Shown here piece by piece: positions 4,271 through 61,916 of a stretch of DNA of 64,000 nt. Where the stretch lies: the IMG/VR virus record IMGVR_UViG_2908567220_000002, positions 32,001 through 96,000 of that record; one strand, given 5' to 3'. The position numbers and the translations under genes are program-made. Below the pieces are notes generated by a model, which saw nothing but the letters and a program-made list of their open reading frames with translations, did not search any database and was not told the origin of the DNA. Numbering within the stretch: position 1 is the first letter of the stretch; each line of letters starts with the position of its first letter. Source of the stretch: a virus (taxonomy: Duplodnaviria; Heunggongvirae; Uroviricota; Caudoviricetes).

Positions 4271-4426
4271 TTACTCCTCAGGTTCGTAAGCTGTGAAGAC
4301 AGCGACCTCCGTCTGGCCGGTTCGGATTCGTACCTCGCAGAGGTCTTTCCTCGTTACCAGTGCCGTCATTATGACGGTTAAACAGATGACGATCAGGGCG
4401 ATTAACATCGCCTTTTGCTGCTTCAT
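4271..4426 (-). CDS. hokD: Hok/Gef family type I toxin (HokD/RelF-like), 51 aa
   Basis: MKQQKAMLIALIVICLTVIMTALVTRKDLCEVRIRTGQTEVAVFTAYEPEE; track ORF 4271..4483 extends upstream in frame, true start at internal Met. Confidence 0.8.
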   Translation of the reverse strand: MKQQKAMLIALIVICLTVIMTALVTRKDLCEVRIRTGQTEVAVFTAYEPEE

Positions 4427-4836
4427 AGCCTGCTTCTCCTTGCCTTTCGGCACGTAAGAGGCTAACCTAGATTTGCCGTTCATAGATTGAGCCTCAGATT
4501 AATGTATAAGCGTCTTGCAGGACGCATAATGTTAACTGGGGCTTTTCTCTATCTGCCTTTGGTGTTCATGCTTGAGGCAGATAGCCTCAAGCACCCGCAG
4601 CAATTTTACTTAACTCCCCTTTTCCCACAAATCGTTTTTATCCCTACTGGTAATGTTCTCCCGATGTGGGATTCCCACATTGGAACGAATTCAATCAGTT
4701 AAAGACTCATCAGAATCTCACCTTTCTAAGTGCCCACAGGTGAGGCATTGCAATAAAAATAGCAAACGTGTATAAAAGGAGGTAATGCATGTTTTTCCAG
4801 TCTTATCAATCCATTACTGAGAGTTAAGGGGGCGCC

Positions 4837-11616: not shown

Positions 11617-11763
11617 ATGAACGAAACAGAATTAAAACACGTTATCGCTCTGCTTCTGGAGGATGCAAAACGCCTCCAGCAACTGGAACCAAATGCAGGC
11701 ACTGAAGCCCGCATCTGGCTGGCATTGTACGCTATTGAGTCAGGTCGTGATGATGAAGGTTAA
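11617..11763 (+). CDS. small hypothetical protein (48 aa)
   Basis: MNETELKHVIALLLEDAKRLQQLE...; ATG 1 nt after the upstream stop. Confidence 0.35.
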   Translation: MNETELKHVIALLLEDAKRLQQLEPNAGTEARIWLALYAIESGRDDEG

Positions 11764-12044
11764 GCATCATCTAAGTTTTTTACATAGCGCCCATTAGATT
11801 CGGTAACAAGAACACCGGGATTTTTCTTAACTTTTGAGGCCACTGATTCAGCAAGGTCAGCAACAGATTCTTTGTCTTCATTCTTGCTTGAATATATATA
11901 TTCGGCATTAGGAAGACGGTAGGTGTTCCCTAAAGAGGTTGTAATCGTTCTGGAGAATCCCTTTGCTTCCATTCGTTCATGAAGCTTATCGTAATCAGCG
12001 GAACTGGAATCGCGAAGTTCGATCCTGACTGTAAATTTTGCCAT
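11760..12044 (-). CDS. hypothetical protein
   Basis: track ORF 11760..12056; GGAGG RBS supports start at MAKFTVRIELRD. Confidence 0.45.
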   Translation of the reverse strand: MAKFTVRIELRDSSSADYDKLHERMEAKGFSRTITTSLGNTYRLPNAEYIYSSKNEDKESVADLAESVASKVKKNPGVLVTESNGRYVKNLDDA

Positions 12045-12074
12045 TTTATCCTCCATTTAGGTTCTGGGTTAGAA

Positions 12075-12330
12075 ATGGAGACCAATACGGGGCTACGTGT
12101 GGTCGTGCGCCGGACACGGATAAGAATCCGGCACTGACAGTTTACTGAAAGGATATTTCCCTGAAAAGTCAGGGCATAACACGAAAGCGTACGGCGAAGG
12201 CCTTCACCTATGAGGCTTGTCGTTAATTTCTTCGACCGTGCGCTTCCGGTTGTGGCACTCCGCGAAATGGCGCGGCGGTAAGTATGGCGGGGTTATTCCT
12301 TCCCCCGTTGAGGACACCGGGTTGTCAGGT
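12075..12330. other. conserved structured non-coding region (copy 1)
   Basis: about 250 nt with no ORF of 60 aa or more, multiple inverted repeats (GGTTGTCA...TGACAACC, CCGCGaaatggCGCGG); second copy at 60990..61310. Confidence 0.35.
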
Positions 12331-12626
12331 TGACCATACGCTTAAGTGACAACCCCGCCATAACTCATACTGCTATAGATATATGGGGACTAACCGGAGG
12401 AAAAATGATAGTTCAATGCACAGACGGGAATAATAAGCTGCTCTGGTCATACGATACCGTCAGCCAGAAACACATAATGAATATGACTTTTATAAAGGAC
12501 GGTACTCAACAAAAAATCATTACCGCCCTTGCAAGTGCATTAACTCAGGCGACAAGCCAAATTCTGCTATCTGATAACGTTAATGGAGTATCTGATATTG
12601 GCTCGATGACCGGGAGGGAGTGCTAA
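12330..12626 (+). CDS. hypothetical protein
   Basis: 98 aa ORF; overlaps 3-prime end of convergent ORF 12567..12836; lies where prophage B has dicF. Confidence 0.3.
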   Translation: MTIRLSDNPAITHTAIDIWGLTGGKMIVQCTDGNNKLLWSYDTVSQKHIMNMTFIKDGTQQKIITALASALTQATSQILLSDNVNGVSDIGSMTGREC

Positions 12627-12836
12627 TACAACATTCCAGTAACCCGAGTGGGGCACGGTAATATTGGCAGGGAATCGTTCATAGAAACCGCCGTAATAGG
12701 TAAAACGCCCGCCCCGCTTGAAAGCCTGGTAATTTGAATCATCCATTAATAAAACATTAATCTGGTGTGAACATTGAACCCTGACAAGGTCACCATCATT
12801 CATGTGTTCACGACTATGTATATGGGACATAAACAC
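12567..12836 (-). CDS. hypothetical protein
   Basis: 89 aa ORF convergent with 12330..12626. Confidence 0.3.
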   Translation of the reverse strand: MFMSHIHSREHMNDGDLVRVQCSHQINVLLMDDSNYQAFKRGGRFTYYGGFYERFPANITVPHSGYWNVVLALPPGHRANIRYSINVIR

Positions 12837-13347
12837 TCCTTTTTACTGTGGAAAGCTAAATCATATCACGGTCTATGAAGTAAAAAGTGAATTTCGTGAT
12901 GCGGTGAATGCGGCTCAGCGCACGCAGAACAGTTAAAAACACAAGTGTTATGGGTGAATCATCCGGCGTTAATTGCTAACTGGTTAACGTCACCTGGAGG
13001 CACCAGGCACCGCATCACAAAGTTCACTTAGGTGATGAAAGGTAGAGAAAATGTTGAATGTAGCTATTGAAAACCAGAACGGGTGGAATTATAGTGCACC
13101 TGCACCTCATAAAACGGGTGCCGGGCGTGGAAACCCGATGTTCACTAACGCGCATAACCGCGCTCAGGCGGTTTTTTTATGCGTAATGCACAGCCACATT
13201 CAGATTATGGTGGGACGTGCAGGGCAGCCGCAAGGCTGGCCGGGTTCGTTAGTGACCGGTATTTCCACCCCTGTACGTCTCACCACCCTTATGGTCGTGG
13301 AAAACCTTGGTGGTGAGTTAATCAAATTCACTAACGAGGCTGCTATC

Positions 13348-13902
13348 ATGGCTACTATCCCTACCCTTTCTCAACCTGACGTAACCATCGAAAATGGTCG
13401 CGCTGTCACTACGTCTGTTGCGATCGCCGAGTTCTTTGGCAAACGCCACGACAATGTTATTCAAAAAATAAAATTACTGGATTGCTCCCCTGAATTCACT
13501 GCCCTTAATTTTAAGGTGAGCGAATACACCGACTCAACCGGGCGCAAACTCCCTATGTACCAAATCACCAAAAACGGCTTCGTTTTCCTGGTGATGGGCT
13601 TCACGGGCAAAAAAGCCGCAGCTTTCAAGGAAGCCTACATCGCTGAATTCGATCGCATGGAGGCAGAGTTGTACCAGCTTAATACCACTACCACAGACAA
13701 AATAATTCCTGGTGATGGTCGCACTCTCGTTGTTCACTTCGACGAACGCGGCAATATCAAATTCACCGAAACCGTTCCTGACGGCGCTCTCGTCTGTACT
13801 CTGGATACTTTCCGCTTTTATCTGGAGAAGCAGGGGTGGACTCTTGTAAACAGGAGCGCAATTAAAAATATGACCGTCGAGCAGTTGCTGAGTATTAAAT
13901 AG
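13348..13902 (+). CDS. Rha-family phage regulatory protein
   Basis: Rha-like N-terminal motif VAIAEFFGKRHDNVIQKIK; GAGG RBS before internal Met of track ORF 13051..13902; upstream extension judged non-coding. Confidence 0.6.
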   Translation: MATIPTLSQPDVTIENGRAVTTSVAIAEFFGKRHDNVIQKIKLLDCSPEFTALNFKVSEYTDSTGRKLPMYQITKNGFVFLVMGFTGKKAAAFKEAYIAEFDRMEAELYQLNTTTTDKIIPGDGRTLVVHFDERGNIKFTETVPDGALVCTLDTFRFYLEKQGWTLVNRSAIKNMTVEQLLSIK

Positions 13903-13948
13903 TTTTCTGGAATTTTCTTAATGCGACAAATTTATTAAGGAGATAATT

Positions 13949-14170
13949 ATGATTGCTCATCACTTCGGAACTGATGATATTCCTCGTCAGTGCGTGACTC
14001 CCGGTGATTATGTTATTCATAAAGGAAGAACATATATTGCTTCGGTAAACAATATAAAAAAACACCGGCTCTATATTCGTGATTTTTCCACACAACACTG
14101 TATTAATGAAACCATGATTAAAGTCTTCCTTGATCGTGATGGTTTACCTGTAAAGGCGGAGTCGTGGTGA
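13949..14170 (+). CDS. hypothetical protein
   Basis: 73 aa with strong AAGGAG RBS. Confidence 0.45.
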
Positions 14171-53989: not shown

Positions 53990-54145
53990 TTACTCCTCAG
54001 GTTCGTAAGCTGTGAAGACAGCGACCTCCGTCTGCCCGGTTCGGATTCGTACCTCGCAGAGGTCTTTCCTCGTTACCAGTGCCGTCACTATGACGGTTAA
54101 ACAGATGACGATCAGGGCGATTAGCATCGCCTTTTGCTGCTTCAT
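53990..54145 (-). CDS. hokD: Hok/Gef family type I toxin (copy 2)
   Basis: 51 aa MKQQKAMLIALIVICLTVIVTALVTRKDLCEVRIRTGQTEVAVFTAYEPEE within track ORF 53990..54202. Confidence 0.8.
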   Translation of the reverse strand: MKQQKAMLIALIVICLTVIVTALVTRKDLCEVRIRTGQTEVAVFTAYEPEE

Positions 54146-54436
54146 AGCCTGCTTCTCCTTGCCTTTCGGCACGTAAGAGGCTAACCTACGTGTGTAGAGC
54201 ATAGATATGGCCTCAGATTAATGTTAAGCGTCTTGCCGGACGCGTAATGTTAACTGGGGCTTTTCTCTATCTGCCTTTTGGTGTTCATGCCTGAGACAGA
54301 TAGCCTCAAGCACCCGCTGCAATTCTACTTAACTCTCCTTTTCCCGCAAACCGTTTTTATCCCCAGCGGCAAATCGAATACACCACCAGCGCCACCGCCA
54401 TCGCAATTCCTACCGTTGTTAATGCTTCAGGCCAGG

Positions 54437-60403: not shown

Positions 60404-60724
60404 ATGGAATTTAAAGATTTACCAGTACCATTCCAGGAAATGGCATCGAATGTGGTTCGCTCTCAACTGGCGACTCTTGACCTGAGTACCGTAGAAAAAG
60501 AAACCATCGACAATATATCCGGTAACGTACGCCGAGCCTTTATCGGGCTGTACGAAGAGAAGCAGCTCTCTGATAACCAGGATTTACATGAAAAATACTT
60601 CCTGGATCTAATGGACATCATTGATAAGGGGTTTGGCTTGTTAATGAAAAAGAAAGGGATTCGAATAGAACCCCTTGAAAATTACTTTGCAACAAAAAGC
60701 ATTAATTCTTTTGATTCAAAATAA
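60404..60724 (+). CDS. hypothetical protein
   Basis: probable start MEFKDLPVPFQ with GAGG RBS within track ORF 60392..60724. Confidence 0.4.
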   Translation: MEFKDLPVPFQEMASNVVRSQLATLDLSTVEKETIDNISGNVRRAFIGLYEEKQLSDNQDLHEKYFLDLMDIIDKGFGLLMKKKGIRIEPLENYFATKSINSFDSK

Positions 60725-60977
60725 GAGAATTAATTACAGACTTAACATGCTCTTTCTCATGATTGAAGCTCTCATGATTGAAAGTGCCGGGTTGAAGCGA
60801 GTCGATATAATCAACAAGACTCTGTCGTACGACTTCATTTTTATCCATAACAGATGCAAGAAATGAAATTGCTAAAAGAGTTATATCACTACGCGCCGCA
60901 GCATGTTGCAATGCTTTATCAAAATTATTAATCTGGCGTATCAGGGAGTTAATGATTTCATCATTTTCAGTCGACAT
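60702..60977 (-). CDS. hypothetical protein
   Basis: probable start MSTENDEIINSL with AGGAGG RBS within track ORF 60702..61190. Confidence 0.45.
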   Translation of the reverse strand: MSTENDEIINSLIRQINNFDKALQHAAARSDITLLAISFLASVMDKNEVVRQSLVDYIDSLQPGTFNHESFNHEKEHVKSVINSLILNQKN

Positions 60978-60989
60978 TTCACCCTCCTG

Positions 60990-61310
60990 AGGGTTGGTGA
61001 TTAAGGAGTTCTCCACGGGTGAGGTGGAGTGCGTGCGCCGGACACGGGTGAGCATCCGGCACTGACAGTTTACTGAAAGGATATTTCCCTGAAAAGTCAG
61101 ACCATAACGCGAAAGCGCACGGCGAGGTAGCTGGTTCATAGATAGCCTGTCGTTAAATTTTCGTCGACCGTGCGCTTCCGGTTGTGGCAATCCGCGAAAT
61201 GGCGCGGCGGTAAGTATGGCGGGGTTATTCCTTCCCCCGTTGAGGACACCGGGTTGTCAGGTTGACCATACGCTTAAGTGACAACCCCGCTGCAACGCCC
61301 TCTGTTATCA
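60990..61310. other. conserved structured non-coding region (copy 2), upstream of dicF
   Basis: homologous to 12075..12330; conserved flanks with a variable centre. Confidence 0.35.
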
Positions 61311-61312
61311 AT

Positions 61313-61365
61313 TTTCTGGTGACGTTTGGCGGTATCAGTTTTACTCCGTGACTGCTCTGCCGCCC
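61313..61365 (+). ncRNA. dicF: DicF small regulatory RNA
   Basis: TTTCTGGTGACGTTTGGCGGTATCAGTTTTACTCCGTGACTGCTCTGCCGCCC followed by T-run, matches remembered Qin DicF; just upstream of dicB. Confidence 0.7.
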
Positions 61366-61539
61366 TTTTTAAAGTGAATTTTGTAATGTGGTGAATGCGG
61401 CTGAGCGCACGCGGAACAGTTAAAACCAAAAACAGTGTTATGGGTGGATTCTCTGTATCCGGCGTTAATTGTTAACTGGTTAACGTCACCTGGAGGCACC
61501 AGGCACCGCATCACAAAATTCATTGTTGAGGACGCGATA

Positions 61540-61728
61540 ATGGAAACGTTATTACCAAACGTTAATACGTCTGAAGGTTGTTTTGAAATTGGTGTCAATA
61601 TCAGTAACCCTGTATTTACTGAAGATGCCATTAACAAGAGAAAACACGAACGGGAGCTATTAAATAAAATATGCATTCTTTCAATGCTGGCCCGTTTACG
61701 TCCGATACAAAAAGGATGCTGGCAATGA
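61540..61728 (+). CDS. dicB: cell division inhibitor DicB
   Basis: 62 aa METLLPNVNTSEGCFEIGVNISNPVFTEDAINKRKHERELLNKICILSMLARL...; internal start of track ORF 61435..61728. Confidence 0.8.
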   Translation: METLLPNVNTSEGCFEIGVNISNPVFTEDAINKRKHERELLNKICILSMLARLRPIQKGCWQ

Positions 61729-61916
61729 ATACAGCATTTGCACTTGTTCTGACAGTTTTTCTTGTTTCCGGAGAGCCAGTTGATATTGCAGTCAGTGTTC
61801 ACAGGACAATGCAGGAGTGTGTGACTGCAGCAACCGAACAGAAAATTCCCGGTAACTGTTACCCGGTCGATAAAGTTATTCACCAGGATAATAACGAAAT
61901 CCCGGCAGGTCTTTAA
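61725..61916 (+). CDS. ydfD: YdfD-like small membrane protein
   Basis: 63 aa MNTAFALVLTVFLVSGEPVDIAVSVHRTMQEC...; start overlaps dicB stop (ATGA). Confidence 0.7.
   Translation: MNTAFALVLTVFLVSGEPVDIAVSVHRTMQECVTAATEQKIPGNCYPVDKVIHQDNNEIPAGL

What the first reader, a model, noticed from the sequence alone, without database searches (positions are those of the whole stretch)
12330..12836. dicF-dicB-ydfD in prophage B versus replacement by two overlapping ORFs in prophage A
Prophage B carries a DicF-like sRNA (61313..61365) followed by dicB and ydfD, the Qin cell-division-inhibition module. Prophage A keeps the flanking sequences (upstream conserved element and the dicF-downstream region at about 12880..13035) but has two convergent overlapping ORFs (98 and 89 aa) in place of dicF, and a Rha-family gene in place of dicB/ydfD. 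The two prophages therefore differ in host-interference cargo at a conserved locus.
Basis: partly seen in the sequence, partly recalled or inferred. Interest (0 to 1): 0.45.

Follow-up and report, generated by a model that had tools for sequence, protein, structure and literature searches.

The report
Two-gene prophage cassette replacing dicF
In one of two related prophages the cell-division-inhibiting small RNA DicF has been swapped for a rare, mobile cassette of two real, tail-to-tail overlapping small-protein genes, a pairing conserved in many temperate phages and so far uncharacterised.

Summary
Prophage B carries a DicF gene identical to K-12 Qin (61314-61365), followed by dicB and ydfD. 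In prophage A, 525 bp (12359-12883) replace the 81 bp that hold dicF, between conserved structured flanks.

- Minus strand, 12567-12830: an 87-aa basic DUF1883 protein. It is a full-length homologue (36% identity) of C. difficile MrpB.
- Plus strand, 12405-12626: a 73-aa acidic protein. Its family has no Pfam or NCBIfam model (phrog_21096 only).

The pair is a conserved unit. In 70 of 80 viral contigs, and in Enterobacterales and Pseudomonas prophages, the two genes are convergent with 18-111 nt of 3' overlap. The cassette sits at about nine different prophage positions. The small partner always runs with the surrounding phage genes and DUF1883 runs against them.

The dicF swap is independent of the neighbouring dicB/ydfD swap to isrK-C4-Rha-Kil. 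Prophage A therefore still encodes a division inhibitor (Kil).

Function is inferred, not shown. My best guess is a moron-type two-protein module acting on host division or envelope machinery, with reciprocal expression set by convergent transcription.

The parts
12108..12358 (+). Conserved, structured non-coding leader upstream of the dicF slot. It is shared with prophage B (61036-61290) and K-12 Qin, and forms the left recombination boundary.
   Evidence: 92% identity between A and B, 99% over the last 123 nt. Alignment with K-12 and loci L001-L003. RNA fold z = -3.7. No Rfam family matches.
12359..12883 (.). 525-bp cassette that replaces the 81-bp dicF segment (61291-61371 in prophage B).
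   Evidence: Breakpoints. GC is 41.5%, against 55% and 48% in the flanks and 50% in the window. The cassette is present in 8 of 5426 complete E. coli genomes. The dicF segment is present in 3975.
12405..12626 (+). Gene for a 73-aa acidic small protein (the 'partner', phrog_21096 family). Predicted fold is three beta strands plus a long helix. GGAGG Shine-Dalgarno at 12396-12400.
   Evidence: phrog_21096, E 1.9e-15. 38 distant relatives at E<=1e-3 among 1.84 billion representatives. dN/dS is 0.32 against L003, and 0.05-0.25 among the 59-aa variants, outside the overlap. AF2 pLDDT 82. No Pfam, NCBIfam, PADLOC or PDB relative.
12567..12830 (-). Gene for an 87-aa basic DUF1883 protein (MrpB-like). 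AGGAG Shine-Dalgarno at 12836-12840.
   Evidence: Pfam PF08980, 86.7 bits against a cut-off of 26. dN/dS 0.03 against L003. 36% identity over the full length to C. difficile MrpB, E 3e-20. PDB 2B1Y (Atu1913), E 4e-6.
12567..12626 (.). 60-nt tail-to-tail overlap of the two genes in a fixed antisense register (codon position 1 opposite position 3).
   Evidence: Substitutions against L003 fall on DUF1883 third positions (9 of 10), so the partner tail evolves freely. In other loci the overlap is 18, 21, 24, 42, 54, 60 or 111 nt, always a multiple of three in the HMM-confirmed pairs.
12860..12868 (-). Extended -10 promoter-like element TGATATGAT, 38 nt upstream of the DUF1883 start codon.
   Evidence: TGnTAT(G/A/T)AT is conserved at the same distance in the window, L001, L002 and L003, although the sequence further upstream differs. 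This is a consensus match only, with no expression data.
12884..13030 (+). Conserved long hairpin between the dicF slot and the dicB slot (right boundary). It has a 22-bp closing stem and resembles STnc100.
   Evidence: Inverted repeat 12885-12906 / 13008-13029. MFE -63.6 kcal/mol, z = -6.2. Rfam STnc100 scores 33.1 bits, below the gathering score of 47. 85% identical to 61372-61528.
13089..14170 (+). Second cargo slot of prophage A. It holds an immI-like control region (weak c4-a1b1 match at 13089-13141, isrK at 13102-13178, C4 RNA at 13203-13290), a Rha-type antirepressor (13348-13902) and a Kil homologue (13949-14170). It sits where prophage B has dicB-ydfD.
   Evidence: Rfam isrK 65.9 bits and C4 80.3 bits. 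c4-a1b1 is weak. Pfam Phage_pRha 2.8e-31. phrog_294 Kil 2e-32.
61314..61365 (+). DicF sRNA gene of prophage B.
   Evidence: Rfam RF00039, 76.7 bits. Identical to K-12 dicF.
61540..61916 (+). dicB (61540-61728) and ydfD (61725-61916) of prophage B.
   Evidence: Pfam DicB 9.9e-37 and DUF1482 3.7e-25. ORFs.

Best explanation
The segment is a mobile, moron-type cassette of two genuine small-protein genes. By recombination between conserved structured flanks, it has replaced the dicF sRNA gene in the early-left (dicB-type) operon of a Qin-like prophage.

Shown:
- One gene (minus strand) encodes an 87-aa basic DUF1883 beta-sandwich protein, a full-length homologue of C. difficile MrpB.
- The other (plus strand) encodes a 73-aa acidic protein of an unnamed family.
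- The two genes are inherited as a unit. They are convergent with overlapping 3' ends, in many temperate phages of Enterobacterales and Pseudomonas.
- The unit is inserted at about nine different genome positions.
- The small partner is always co-directional with the surrounding phage (lytic) genes. DUF1883 is always antisense to them.

Inferred mechanism:
1. DUF1883 is transcribed from its own extended -10 promoter, independently of the repressed phage operon. It is therefore made in the lysogen.
2. The partner is made by read-through of the phage operon after induction.
3. Convergent transcription and the complementary 3' ends make expression of the two genes reciprocal or mutually dampening.
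4. The acidic partner and the basic DUF1883 protein act together as a complex on a host target. By analogy with MrpA/MrpB (acidic plus basic pair, both needed, perturbing MinD-dependent septation), the target is most likely cell-division or envelope machinery. In that case the cassette would be a protein-based substitute for DicF in the division-inhibition region.
For: Replacement and flanks.

DUF1883 gene is real: Pfam 86.7 bits; dN/dS 0.03; 912 homologue clusters.

Partner gene is real:
- PHROG hit.
- 38 distant relatives covering the full length.
- dN/dS 0.05-0.32 outside the overlap.
- Conserved Shine-Dalgarno and length in a 70-75% identical variant.

Pair conservation:
- 6 of 7 genome loci found through the partner alone also have a convergent, overlapping DUF1883 gene.
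- The same holds for loci found through DUF1883: E. coli, Yersinia, Klebsiella, Serratia, Morganella, Providencia and P. aeruginosa prophages.
- 70 of 80 IMG/VR loci have both genes, with overlaps of 21, 24, 42, 54 or 60 nt.

Orientation rule: 70 of 70 viral loci have most flanking coding length on the partner strand, and 57 of 70 have both nearest neighbours on it. This holds across about nine distinct contexts.

Moron features: low GC; presence/absence polymorphism (8 vs 3975 genomes); conserved extended -10.

MrpB link:
- 36% identity over all 87 residues.
- pI 9.4 and 5.5 here, against 9.3 and 4.1 for MrpB and MrpA.
- MrpAB biology is taken from PMC12694794.
Against: - No expression, interaction or phenotype data exist for this cassette. 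The whole mechanism is inferred.
- The partner is not detectably homologous to MrpA (hhalign probability 0.2%). mrpAB are co-transcribed, not convergent.
- The cassette also sits in tail, lysis and cI-adjacent positions, so its place in the dicF slot may say nothing about function.
- Singletons exist: partner without DUF1883 in 10 of 80 viral loci and in X. innexi; DUF1883 without partner in Pantoea ananatis and Mesorhizobium; the partner is a pseudogene in a Klebsiella phage. The two proteins are therefore not strictly interdependent.
- The promoter is only a consensus match. The general scan did not list it, and found no terminator on the minus strand.
- The conserved upstream motif differs in the Erwinia, Pantoea and Xenorhabdus copies.
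Confidence: 0.6

Rival explanations
1. The pair is a prophage-encoded defence or superinfection-exclusion module. DUF1883, made in the lysogen, blocks or aborts infection by other phages. The partner, made only from the prophage's own lytic transcripts, neutralises it so that the resident phage can replicate.
For: - DUF1883 is antisense to the lytic operons and the partner is sense, in every context.
- The insertion sites are classical moron positions: between Q and the lysis genes, and next to the tape-measure gene.
- DUF1883 is a frequent N-terminal domain of bacterial TIR proteins, which are immune effectors (PMC9153377).
- phrog_9211 is a 268-position profile with DUF1883 at its N-terminus.
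Against: - No PADLOC model matches either protein.
- The 87-aa protein has no effector domain.
- Standalone DUF1883 proteins at 50-60% identity also occur in Mesorhizobium, Methylopila and Acidobacteria. The Mesorhizobium locus examined lies beside an integrase, not in a phage.
- The only experimentally studied standalone homologue (MrpB) affects cell division, not phage resistance.
Confidence: 0.2
2. The pair is a toxin-antitoxin (addiction) system. One protein is toxic and the other, or its antisense 3' RNA, is the antidote.
For: - Two small genes are inherited together on mobile elements.
- The complementary 3' ends recall type I systems with convergent 3'-overlapping transcripts (txpA/RatA, par of pAD1; from general knowledge).
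- The proteins form an acidic and basic pair.
Against: - Neither protein matches any toxin or antitoxin family in Pfam, NCBIfam or PADLOC.
- Neither has a hydrophobic, membrane-toxin character (GRAVY -0.06 and -0.43).
- The genes are convergent, not a co-directional operon as in type II systems.
- Singletons of both kinds occur naturally. That is not expected if one partner were lethal alone.
- MrpB and MrpA were each expressed alone in E. coli and detected there by western blot (PMC12694794).
Confidence: 0.08
3. Only the DUF1883 gene is real. The plus-strand ORF is a chance open frame in its 3' region, or a non-coding 3' UTR or antisense RNA.
For: - PGAP leaves the plus ORF unannotated in 6 of 8 E. 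coli genomes and truncates it to 49 aa in the other two.
- Only 3 clusters were found by the word-indexed search.
- Its last 19 codons evolve as dictated by the opposite strand.
Against: - The family is recovered in 38 representative clusters below 50% identity, with a conserved W..D..G..YxKDGTQQKIIxAL..AL.QA core.
- There is strong purifying selection outside the overlap (dN/dS 0.05-0.25).
- It has a conserved Shine-Dalgarno sequence and start.
- The predicted fold is confident (pLDDT 82).
- Independent gene callers annotate it in Yersinia, Klebsiella, Serratia, Morganella and Providencia.
Confidence: 0.03
4. The small partner is a transcription factor, as implied by the name 'Rrf2 family transcriptional regulator' on Klebsiella copies, and it controls the DUF1883 gene.
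For: NCBI records give that name to the 59-aa Klebsiella homologues. The protein has a long C-terminal helix.
Against: - No Rrf2 model in Pfam or NCBIfam matches these proteins, even at E<=10.
- The predicted fold has no helix-turn-helix.
Confidence: 0.04

Closest known systems
MrpA/MrpB of Clostridioides difficile (PLoS Pathog 2025, PMC12694794)
   Same: - MrpB is an 87-aa basic standalone DUF1883 protein. It is 36% identical over the full length to the window protein.
- It works with a small acidic partner: pI 4.1 and 9.3, against 5.5 and 9.4 here.
- Both proteins are needed for the phenotype, and MrpB pulls down MrpA.
- The phenotype is cell elongation and misplaced septa, and MrpA binds MinD.
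   Different: - The partner here is not homologous to MrpA.
- The genes here are convergent and overlapping. mrpAB are co-transcribed.
- The cassette here is prophage-borne and mobile. mrpAB are a chromosomal pair regulated by CmrT.
- No functional data exist for the phage pair.
dicF-dicB-ydfD module of cryptic prophage Qin (E. coli K-12)
   Same: Prophage B carries it almost unchanged. Prophage A keeps the same operon frame, leader and downstream hairpin.
   Different: In prophage A the sRNA is replaced by two protein genes, one of them antisense to the operon. dicB-ydfD is replaced by isrK-C4-Rha-Kil.
Phage morons (for example lambda bor and lom, HK97 gp15; from general knowledge)
   Same: - A small insert between conserved phage genes.
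- Lower GC than its surroundings.
- A putative promoter of its own.
- Present or absent among otherwise homologous phages.
- Often antisense to the flanking operon.
   Different: - It carries two genes in a fixed tail-to-tail overlapping arrangement, one sense and one antisense to the host operon.
- No terminator was found.
Type I toxin-antitoxin loci with convergent 3'-overlapping transcripts (txpA/RatA, par of pAD1; from general knowledge)
   Same: Convergent transcription units with complementary 3' ends would allow RNA-RNA pairing and RNase III cleavage.
   Different: Both transcripts here encode conserved soluble proteins. There is no hydrophobic toxin peptide, and no family match.
P1/P7 immI (c4-icd-ant) and Gifsy-1 isrK-anrP antirepressor control
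   Same: The neighbouring slot of prophage A has isrK and C4 RNA matches above the Rfam gathering scores. These are followed by a Rha-type antirepressor with a long in-frame upstream ORF.
   Different: This concerns the adjacent slot, not the cassette itself. The a1/b1 target match is weak (24.7 bits against 46.7).

Membership tests
DicF RNA (Rfam RF00039), prophage B | Covariance-model score at or above the gathering score, over the full model | tested here: met
   76.7 bits against 48, model positions 1-52 of 52.
DicF RNA (Rfam RF00039), prophage B | Location in the dicB operon, between the ydfABC-type genes and dicB, with identity to K-12 dicF | tested here: met
   100% identical to b1574. 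The flanking intergenic sequence is nearly identical to K-12 Qin.
DicF RNA, prophage A | Any DicF-like sequence in the equivalent slot | tested here: not met
   No DicF match in 12040-13320, even at E<=1.
DUF1883 (Pfam PF08980) | Pfam score above the gathering cut-off over the whole domain | tested here: met
   86.7 bits against 26, residues 3-87 on profile positions 3-87 of 89.
DUF1883 (Pfam PF08980) | Sequence relationship to the solved family member Atu1913 (PDB 2B1Y) | tested here: met
   phmmer E 4e-6, residues 8-81.
MrpAB-type division modulators (C. difficile) | MrpB-like standalone DUF1883 protein of about 87 aa | tested here: met
   36% identity, 87 of 87 residues aligned, E 3e-20.
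MrpAB-type division modulators (C. difficile) | MrpA-homologous partner | tested here: not met
   hhalign of the partner family alignment against MrpA gives probability 0.2%.
MrpAB-type division modulators (C. difficile) | The two genes are co-transcribed on one strand | tested here: not met
   The genes are convergent with a 60-nt overlap.
MrpAB-type division modulators (C. difficile) | Co-expression causes elongation and mis-septation, and the partner binds MinD | not testable with these tools
   This needs expression and interaction experiments.
Partner family (phrog_21096) | Profile match over the whole protein, with the conserved core motif | tested here: met
   E 1.9e-15, residues 8-65 on profile positions 7-64 of 65. 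The motif is conserved in 28 aligned members.
Phage moron | Present or absent between otherwise homologous phages, with deviating base composition | tested here: met
   8 genomes against 3975. GC 41.5% against about 50%.
Phage moron | Own promoter and terminator | tested here: inconclusive
   An extended -10 is conserved in four cassette variants, but it is only a consensus match. No terminator was found.
Type II toxin-antitoxin | Co-directional two-gene operon with a recognisable toxin or antitoxin domain | tested here: not met
   The genes are convergent. There are no Pfam, NCBIfam or PADLOC matches.
Known anti-phage defence systems (PADLOC-DB 2.0) | Match of either protein to a defence-system model | tested here: not met
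   0 families at E<=0.1.
Rrf2 family transcriptional regulators (database name on Klebsiella partner copies) | Match to an Rrf2 HMM or a winged-helix fold | tested here: not met
   No Rrf2 hit at E<=10 in Pfam or NCBIfam. The model is three strands plus helices.

The most novel reading that the evidence does not exclude
The DUF1883/partner pair is a widespread, phage-borne two-protein modulator of the host division machinery (Min/FtsZ). It would be a proteobacterial counterpart of C. difficile MrpAB with a non-homologous partner.

Its activity would be gated by convergent, 3'-overlapping transcription. DUF1883 is pre-made in the lysogen, and the partner arrives only with lytic transcription. 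The active pair would therefore form at induction and substitute for DicF.

An equally unexcluded variant is that standalone DUF1883 acts as a decoy or sensor related to DUF1883-TIR immune proteins.
Probability: 0.25. Interest if true: 0.7.

Novelty: new variant of a known kind. Interest (0 to 1): 0.5.

Why it matters
Prophage mosaicism at the dicF/dicB region is ordinary in itself. The replacement cargo is what deserves attention.

- It is an uncharacterised two-gene unit with an unusually rigid architecture: tail-to-tail overlap in a fixed antisense register, with one gene sense and one antisense to the phage operon.
- The unit is conserved from E. coli to Pseudomonas and has been inserted independently at many prophage positions.
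- One member is routinely missed or misnamed by annotation pipelines.
- The only studied relative of the other member (MrpB) perturbs cell division, and here the unit sits exactly where a division-inhibiting sRNA normally lies.

If the inferred function holds, this would be a new class of phage-encoded division modulators. It would also be a clear natural example of gene regulation by convergent overlapping transcription between two protein genes, and it would extend MrpAB biology to Gram-negative bacteria. The system is small and easy to test experimentally.

Tried and rejected
- Global MAFFT alignment of the two loci misplaced the gap. I redid it with local-pair alignment and extra loci.
- blastn and tblastn of the cassette and the partner against the INPHARED phage collection found nothing for the partner. 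They found only three distant DUF1883 hits.
- The first dN/dS script was off by one base. It was corrected.
- The search for related loci with the 28-sequence alignment failed because no conserved stretch was found. It worked with a 10-sequence alignment.
- Pfam on longer proteins containing the partner domain gave no informative domain.
- MrpA homology of the partner is rejected.
- The Rrf2 name is rejected.
- ARAGORN found no tRNA in the window or in L002, although the Rfam tRNA model does match the L002 element.
- The consensus promoter/terminator scan around the cassette was no better than shuffled sequence.
- I did not attempt a complex prediction, because the structure tool takes single chains only.
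Full report
**1. Observation**

Rfam places DicF at 61314-61365 (+) with 76.7 bits against a gathering score of 48. Aligned with K-12 Qin, dicF is identical, and the whole ydfC-dicB intergenic region is nearly so. Downstream lie dicB (61540-61728; Pfam DicB 1e-36) and ydfD (61725-61916; DUF1482).

- 12330-12626 (+), 98 aa;
- 12567-12836 (-), 89 aa.

They overlap by 60 nt. A local-pair alignment of both loci with related loci fixes the breakpoints. The A-specific segment is 12359-12883 (525 bp) and the B-specific segment is 61291-61371 (81 bp, holding dicF). The left flank is 92% identical (99% over its last 123 nt) and the right flank is 85% identical.

**2. Both ORFs are real genes, but shorter than stated**

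*The minus-strand gene.* It starts at ATG 12830, behind an AGGAG, and encodes 87 aa. It matches Pfam DUF1883 over its whole length (86.7 bits against a cut-off of 26). It also matches the solved Atu1913 structure 2B1Y (E 4e-6). Against a cassette variant that has diverged substantially at the DNA level (L003; pS 0.44), it shows 25 synonymous and 4 non-synonymous differences (dN/dS 0.03).

*The plus-strand gene.* It starts at ATG 12405, behind GGAGG, and encodes 73 aa. The upstream TTG start lies inside the leader that prophage B also has. The evidence that it codes for a protein is as follows:
- It has no Pfam, NCBIfam or PADLOC match, but it does hit phrog_21096 (E 1.9e-15).
- The word-indexed search found only three clusters. 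One is a 73-aa protein, 70-75% identical, in the same arrangement.
- The exhaustive HMMER search found 38 representatives below 50% identity. Nearly all are 58-110 aa and share the core W..D..G..Y-x-KDGTQQKII-x-AL..AL-QA.
- Outside the overlap, dN/dS is 0.32 against L003. Among the 59-aa variants from E. coli, Klebsiella, Morganella, Providencia and Serratia it is 0.05-0.25, with saturated synonymous sites.
- AlphaFold2 run on the family alignment gives three strands, a short helix and a long helix (pLDDT 82).

The idea that the plus ORF is spurious is rejected.

**3. The two genes form a conserved unit with a rigid architecture**

Loci were recovered through the partner alone from GTDB genomes: Erwinia (two), Pantoea, Pectobacterium and Xenorhabdus (three). 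Six of these seven carry a DUF1883 gene on the opposite strand with overlapping 3' ends.

Loci recovered through DUF1883 homologues show the same arrangement. They come from E. coli (74% identical), Yersinia, Klebsiella, Serratia, Morganella and Providencia, with 21-24 nt overlaps.

In the very common P. aeruginosa prophage and phage vB_Pae_U8, the partner is present but unannotated, with a 111-nt overlap.

In IMG/VR, 70 of 80 partner-containing loci carry the pair, with overlaps of 21 (28 loci), 24 (24), 42 (6), 54 (8) and 60 (4) nt. Every HMM-confirmed overlap is a multiple of three, so the antisense register is fixed. The partner's C-terminal L-S-D-N-V-N is the reverse reading of DUF1883's I-N-V-I-R-stop. 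In the window's 60-nt overlap, substitutions follow the DUF1883 frame (9 of 10 at its third positions), and the partner's tail drifts.

Exceptions exist:
- partner without DUF1883: 10 of 80 viral loci, and X. innexi;
- DUF1883 without partner: Pantoea ananatis, and Mesorhizobium, where an unrelated co-directional 78-aa gene follows;
- a partner pseudogene in Klebsiella phage ST13-OXA48phi12.5;
- a Pasteurella locus with a convergent 60-aa ORF of similar pattern that falls below the HMM threshold.

These are documented.

**4. It is mobile, and its orientation obeys a rule**

The unit occurs in these positions:
- the dicF slot (window; L001-L004);
- directly downstream of a cI-type repressor (Yersinia);
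- between antiterminator Q and the holin/lysozyme genes (Serratia, Morganella, and the Xenorhabdus type);
- between the tape-measure gene and the distal tail genes (E. coli, Klebsiella, Providencia);
- between tail genes (Erwinia);
- near the terminase (Pantoea, Pseudomonas).

In all of them the partner is co-directional with the flanking phage genes and DUF1883 is antisense. In the viral set, 70 of 70 loci have most flanking coding length on the partner strand, and 57 of 70 have both nearest neighbours on it. Many of those loci are related, but they include 32 distinct partner sequences.

In E. coli the cassette is rare. It is in 8 of 5426 complete genomes, against 3975 genomes (6702 places) for the dicF segment. 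Its GC is 41.5%, against about 50% around it. An extended -10 (TGnTATnAT) lies 38 nt upstream of the DUF1883 start in four cassette variants whose further-upstream sequences differ. Together these are the hallmarks of a moron. The unusual feature is that it carries one sense and one antisense gene.

**5. The neighbouring slot assorts independently**

In E. coli 08-00022 (L001) and in two metagenomic contigs (L003, L004), the cassette is followed by dicB-ydfD. In strain A34 (L002) and in the window it is followed by a different module:
- isrK (65.9 bits);
- C4 RNA (80.3 bits);
- a Rha-type antirepressor;
- a Kil homologue (phrog_294, 2e-32).

Two adjacent cargo slots are thus separated by a conserved long hairpin (12885-13029; 22-bp closing stem; z = -6.2; sub-threshold STnc100 match). 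Prophage A keeps a division inhibitor (Kil). The two prophages therefore differ in the kind of division-interference cargo they carry, not in whether they carry any.

**6. What it may do**

This section is inference.

The only experimentally studied standalone DUF1883 protein I could find is C. difficile MrpB (PMC12694794). I rebuilt the MrpA and MrpB sequences from that paper's S8 Table. The comparison gives these results:
- The window protein aligns with MrpB over all 87 residues at 36% identity (E 3e-20).
- The partner family shows no similarity to MrpA (hhalign probability 0.2%).
- Both systems pair a basic DUF1883 protein (pI 9.4 here, 9.3 for MrpB) with a small acidic protein (pI 5.5, or 4.4 for the 59-aa form; 4.1 for MrpA).

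[quoted passage not shown] MrpB pulls down MrpA, and MrpA binds MinD.

From this and the architecture, the best-supported model has four steps:
1. DUF1883 is made from its own promoter while the phage operon is repressed.
2. The partner is made by read-through after induction.
3. Convergent transcription and the complementary 3' ends couple the two expression states.
4. The two proteins act together on a host target, most plausibly the division or envelope machinery.

Its presence in the dicF slot fits that model but does not prove it, because the unit also sits in tail and lysis modules.

The rivals are as follows:
- A defence or exclusion module, with the partner as a self-antidote. The orientation rule, the moron sites and the DUF1883-TIR architectures noted in PMC9153377 speak for it. 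There is no PADLOC match and no effector domain.
- A toxin-antitoxin pair. The convergent layout, the lack of family matches, and naturally occurring singletons of both kinds argue against it.
- A transcription-factor role for the partner. This rests only on the 'Rrf2' name on Klebsiella copies, which no HMM supports.

**7. Novelty and verdict**

Its refutation tests come out in its favour, and its interpretation is partly right. Cargo polymorphism at this locus is ordinary phage mosaicism.

The added result is that the 'two overlapping ORFs' are a conserved, mobile, uncharacterised two-gene module with a fixed tail-to-tail overlap and a strict orientation rule. One member is MrpB-like. The other is unnamed and frequently unannotated.

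Full-text search of the held literature finds five papers mentioning DUF1883; the three distinct works listed do not concern phages. I rate this a new variant of a known kind (moron; DUF1883/MrpB small-protein pair), of moderate interest, with a testable and potentially more interesting functional hypothesis.

Noticed in passing
window 4421-4596 (-) and 54140-54315 (-): Each prophage carries a full-length match to the Rfam sok antitoxin RNA (110 and 117 bits against a gathering score of 59). This implies hok/sok-type type I toxin-antitoxin loci about 8 kb upstream of the dicF slot in both.
   Followed up: no
window 13051-13902 (+): A 283-aa ORF runs in frame from ATG 13051 through the isrK and C4 RNA genes into the Rha/antirepressor domain. 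PGAP annotates the long form (281 aa) in strain A34. This recalls the long and short Ant forms of P1 immI, but whether the long form is translated is unknown. A weak c4-a1b1 target match lies at 13089-13141.
   Followed up: partly
window 12885-13029 and 61373-61527; also K-12 Qin: A conserved, very stable long hairpin (22-bp closing stem, z = -6.2) separates the dicF slot from the dicB slot. It gives a sub-threshold Rfam STnc100 match (33 bits against 47). It is a plausible RNase III processing site and recombination joint.
   Followed up: partly
window 12108-12358 and 61036-61290: A ~250-nt conserved non-coding leader lies upstream of the dicF slot, with no Rfam family (fold z = -3.7). By eye, a small hairpin in it varies compensatorily between loci (GGGG...CCCC in the window, GGTGG...CCACC in L001). 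Its function is unknown.
   Followed up: partly
window 11760-12044 (-) versus 60702-60977 (-): There is a third polymorphic slot upstream of the leader. Each prophage has a different small gene antisense to the early-left operon, each with a good Shine-Dalgarno sequence. Prophage A has a ~94-98-aa protein (phrog_8894, with a sub-threshold GhoS-like Pfam hit of 19.8 bits against 21). Prophage B has an unrelated 91-aa protein with no Pfam match.
   Followed up: no
L002 (E. coli A34, NZ_CP028741.1) 4521-4595: A tRNA-like gene (Rfam tRNA 46.6 bits against 29; PGAP 'tRNA-OTHER'; not called by ARAGORN) is inserted between the cassette and the downstream hairpin. It is a further cargo variant in the same slot.
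   Followed up: partly
partner genes in L001, L006, L030-L032 and RefSeq E. coli hits H1-H8; Klebsiella cluster: The small partner gene is unannotated in 6 of 8 RefSeq E. coli genomes and truncated to 49 aa in the other two. It is also missed in the P. aeruginosa phage/prophage records. In many Klebsiella records it is labelled 'Rrf2 family transcriptional regulator' without HMM support.
   Followed up: yes
proteins P0071, P0081, P0082 (220-298 aa) and P0097, P0101, P0102 (110-191 aa); loci L107-L110: The partner domain also occurs fused to other sequence. It is C-terminal to an unknown ~150-230-aa region, or N-terminal to an unknown extension. The L107-L110 loci lack DUF1883. No Pfam domain was found in the extra parts.
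   Followed up: partly
L035, L036 (Mesorhizobium) and the hit list: Standalone 86-91-aa DUF1883 proteins, 50-60% identical to the phage protein, occur far outside Enterobacterales (Mesorhizobium, Methylopila, Acidobacteria, Thermodesulfobacteriota). In the Mesorhizobium loci examined, the gene lies next to an integrase and a different small co-directional gene. This suggests that lineage-specific small partners may be a general feature of the family.
   Followed up: partly
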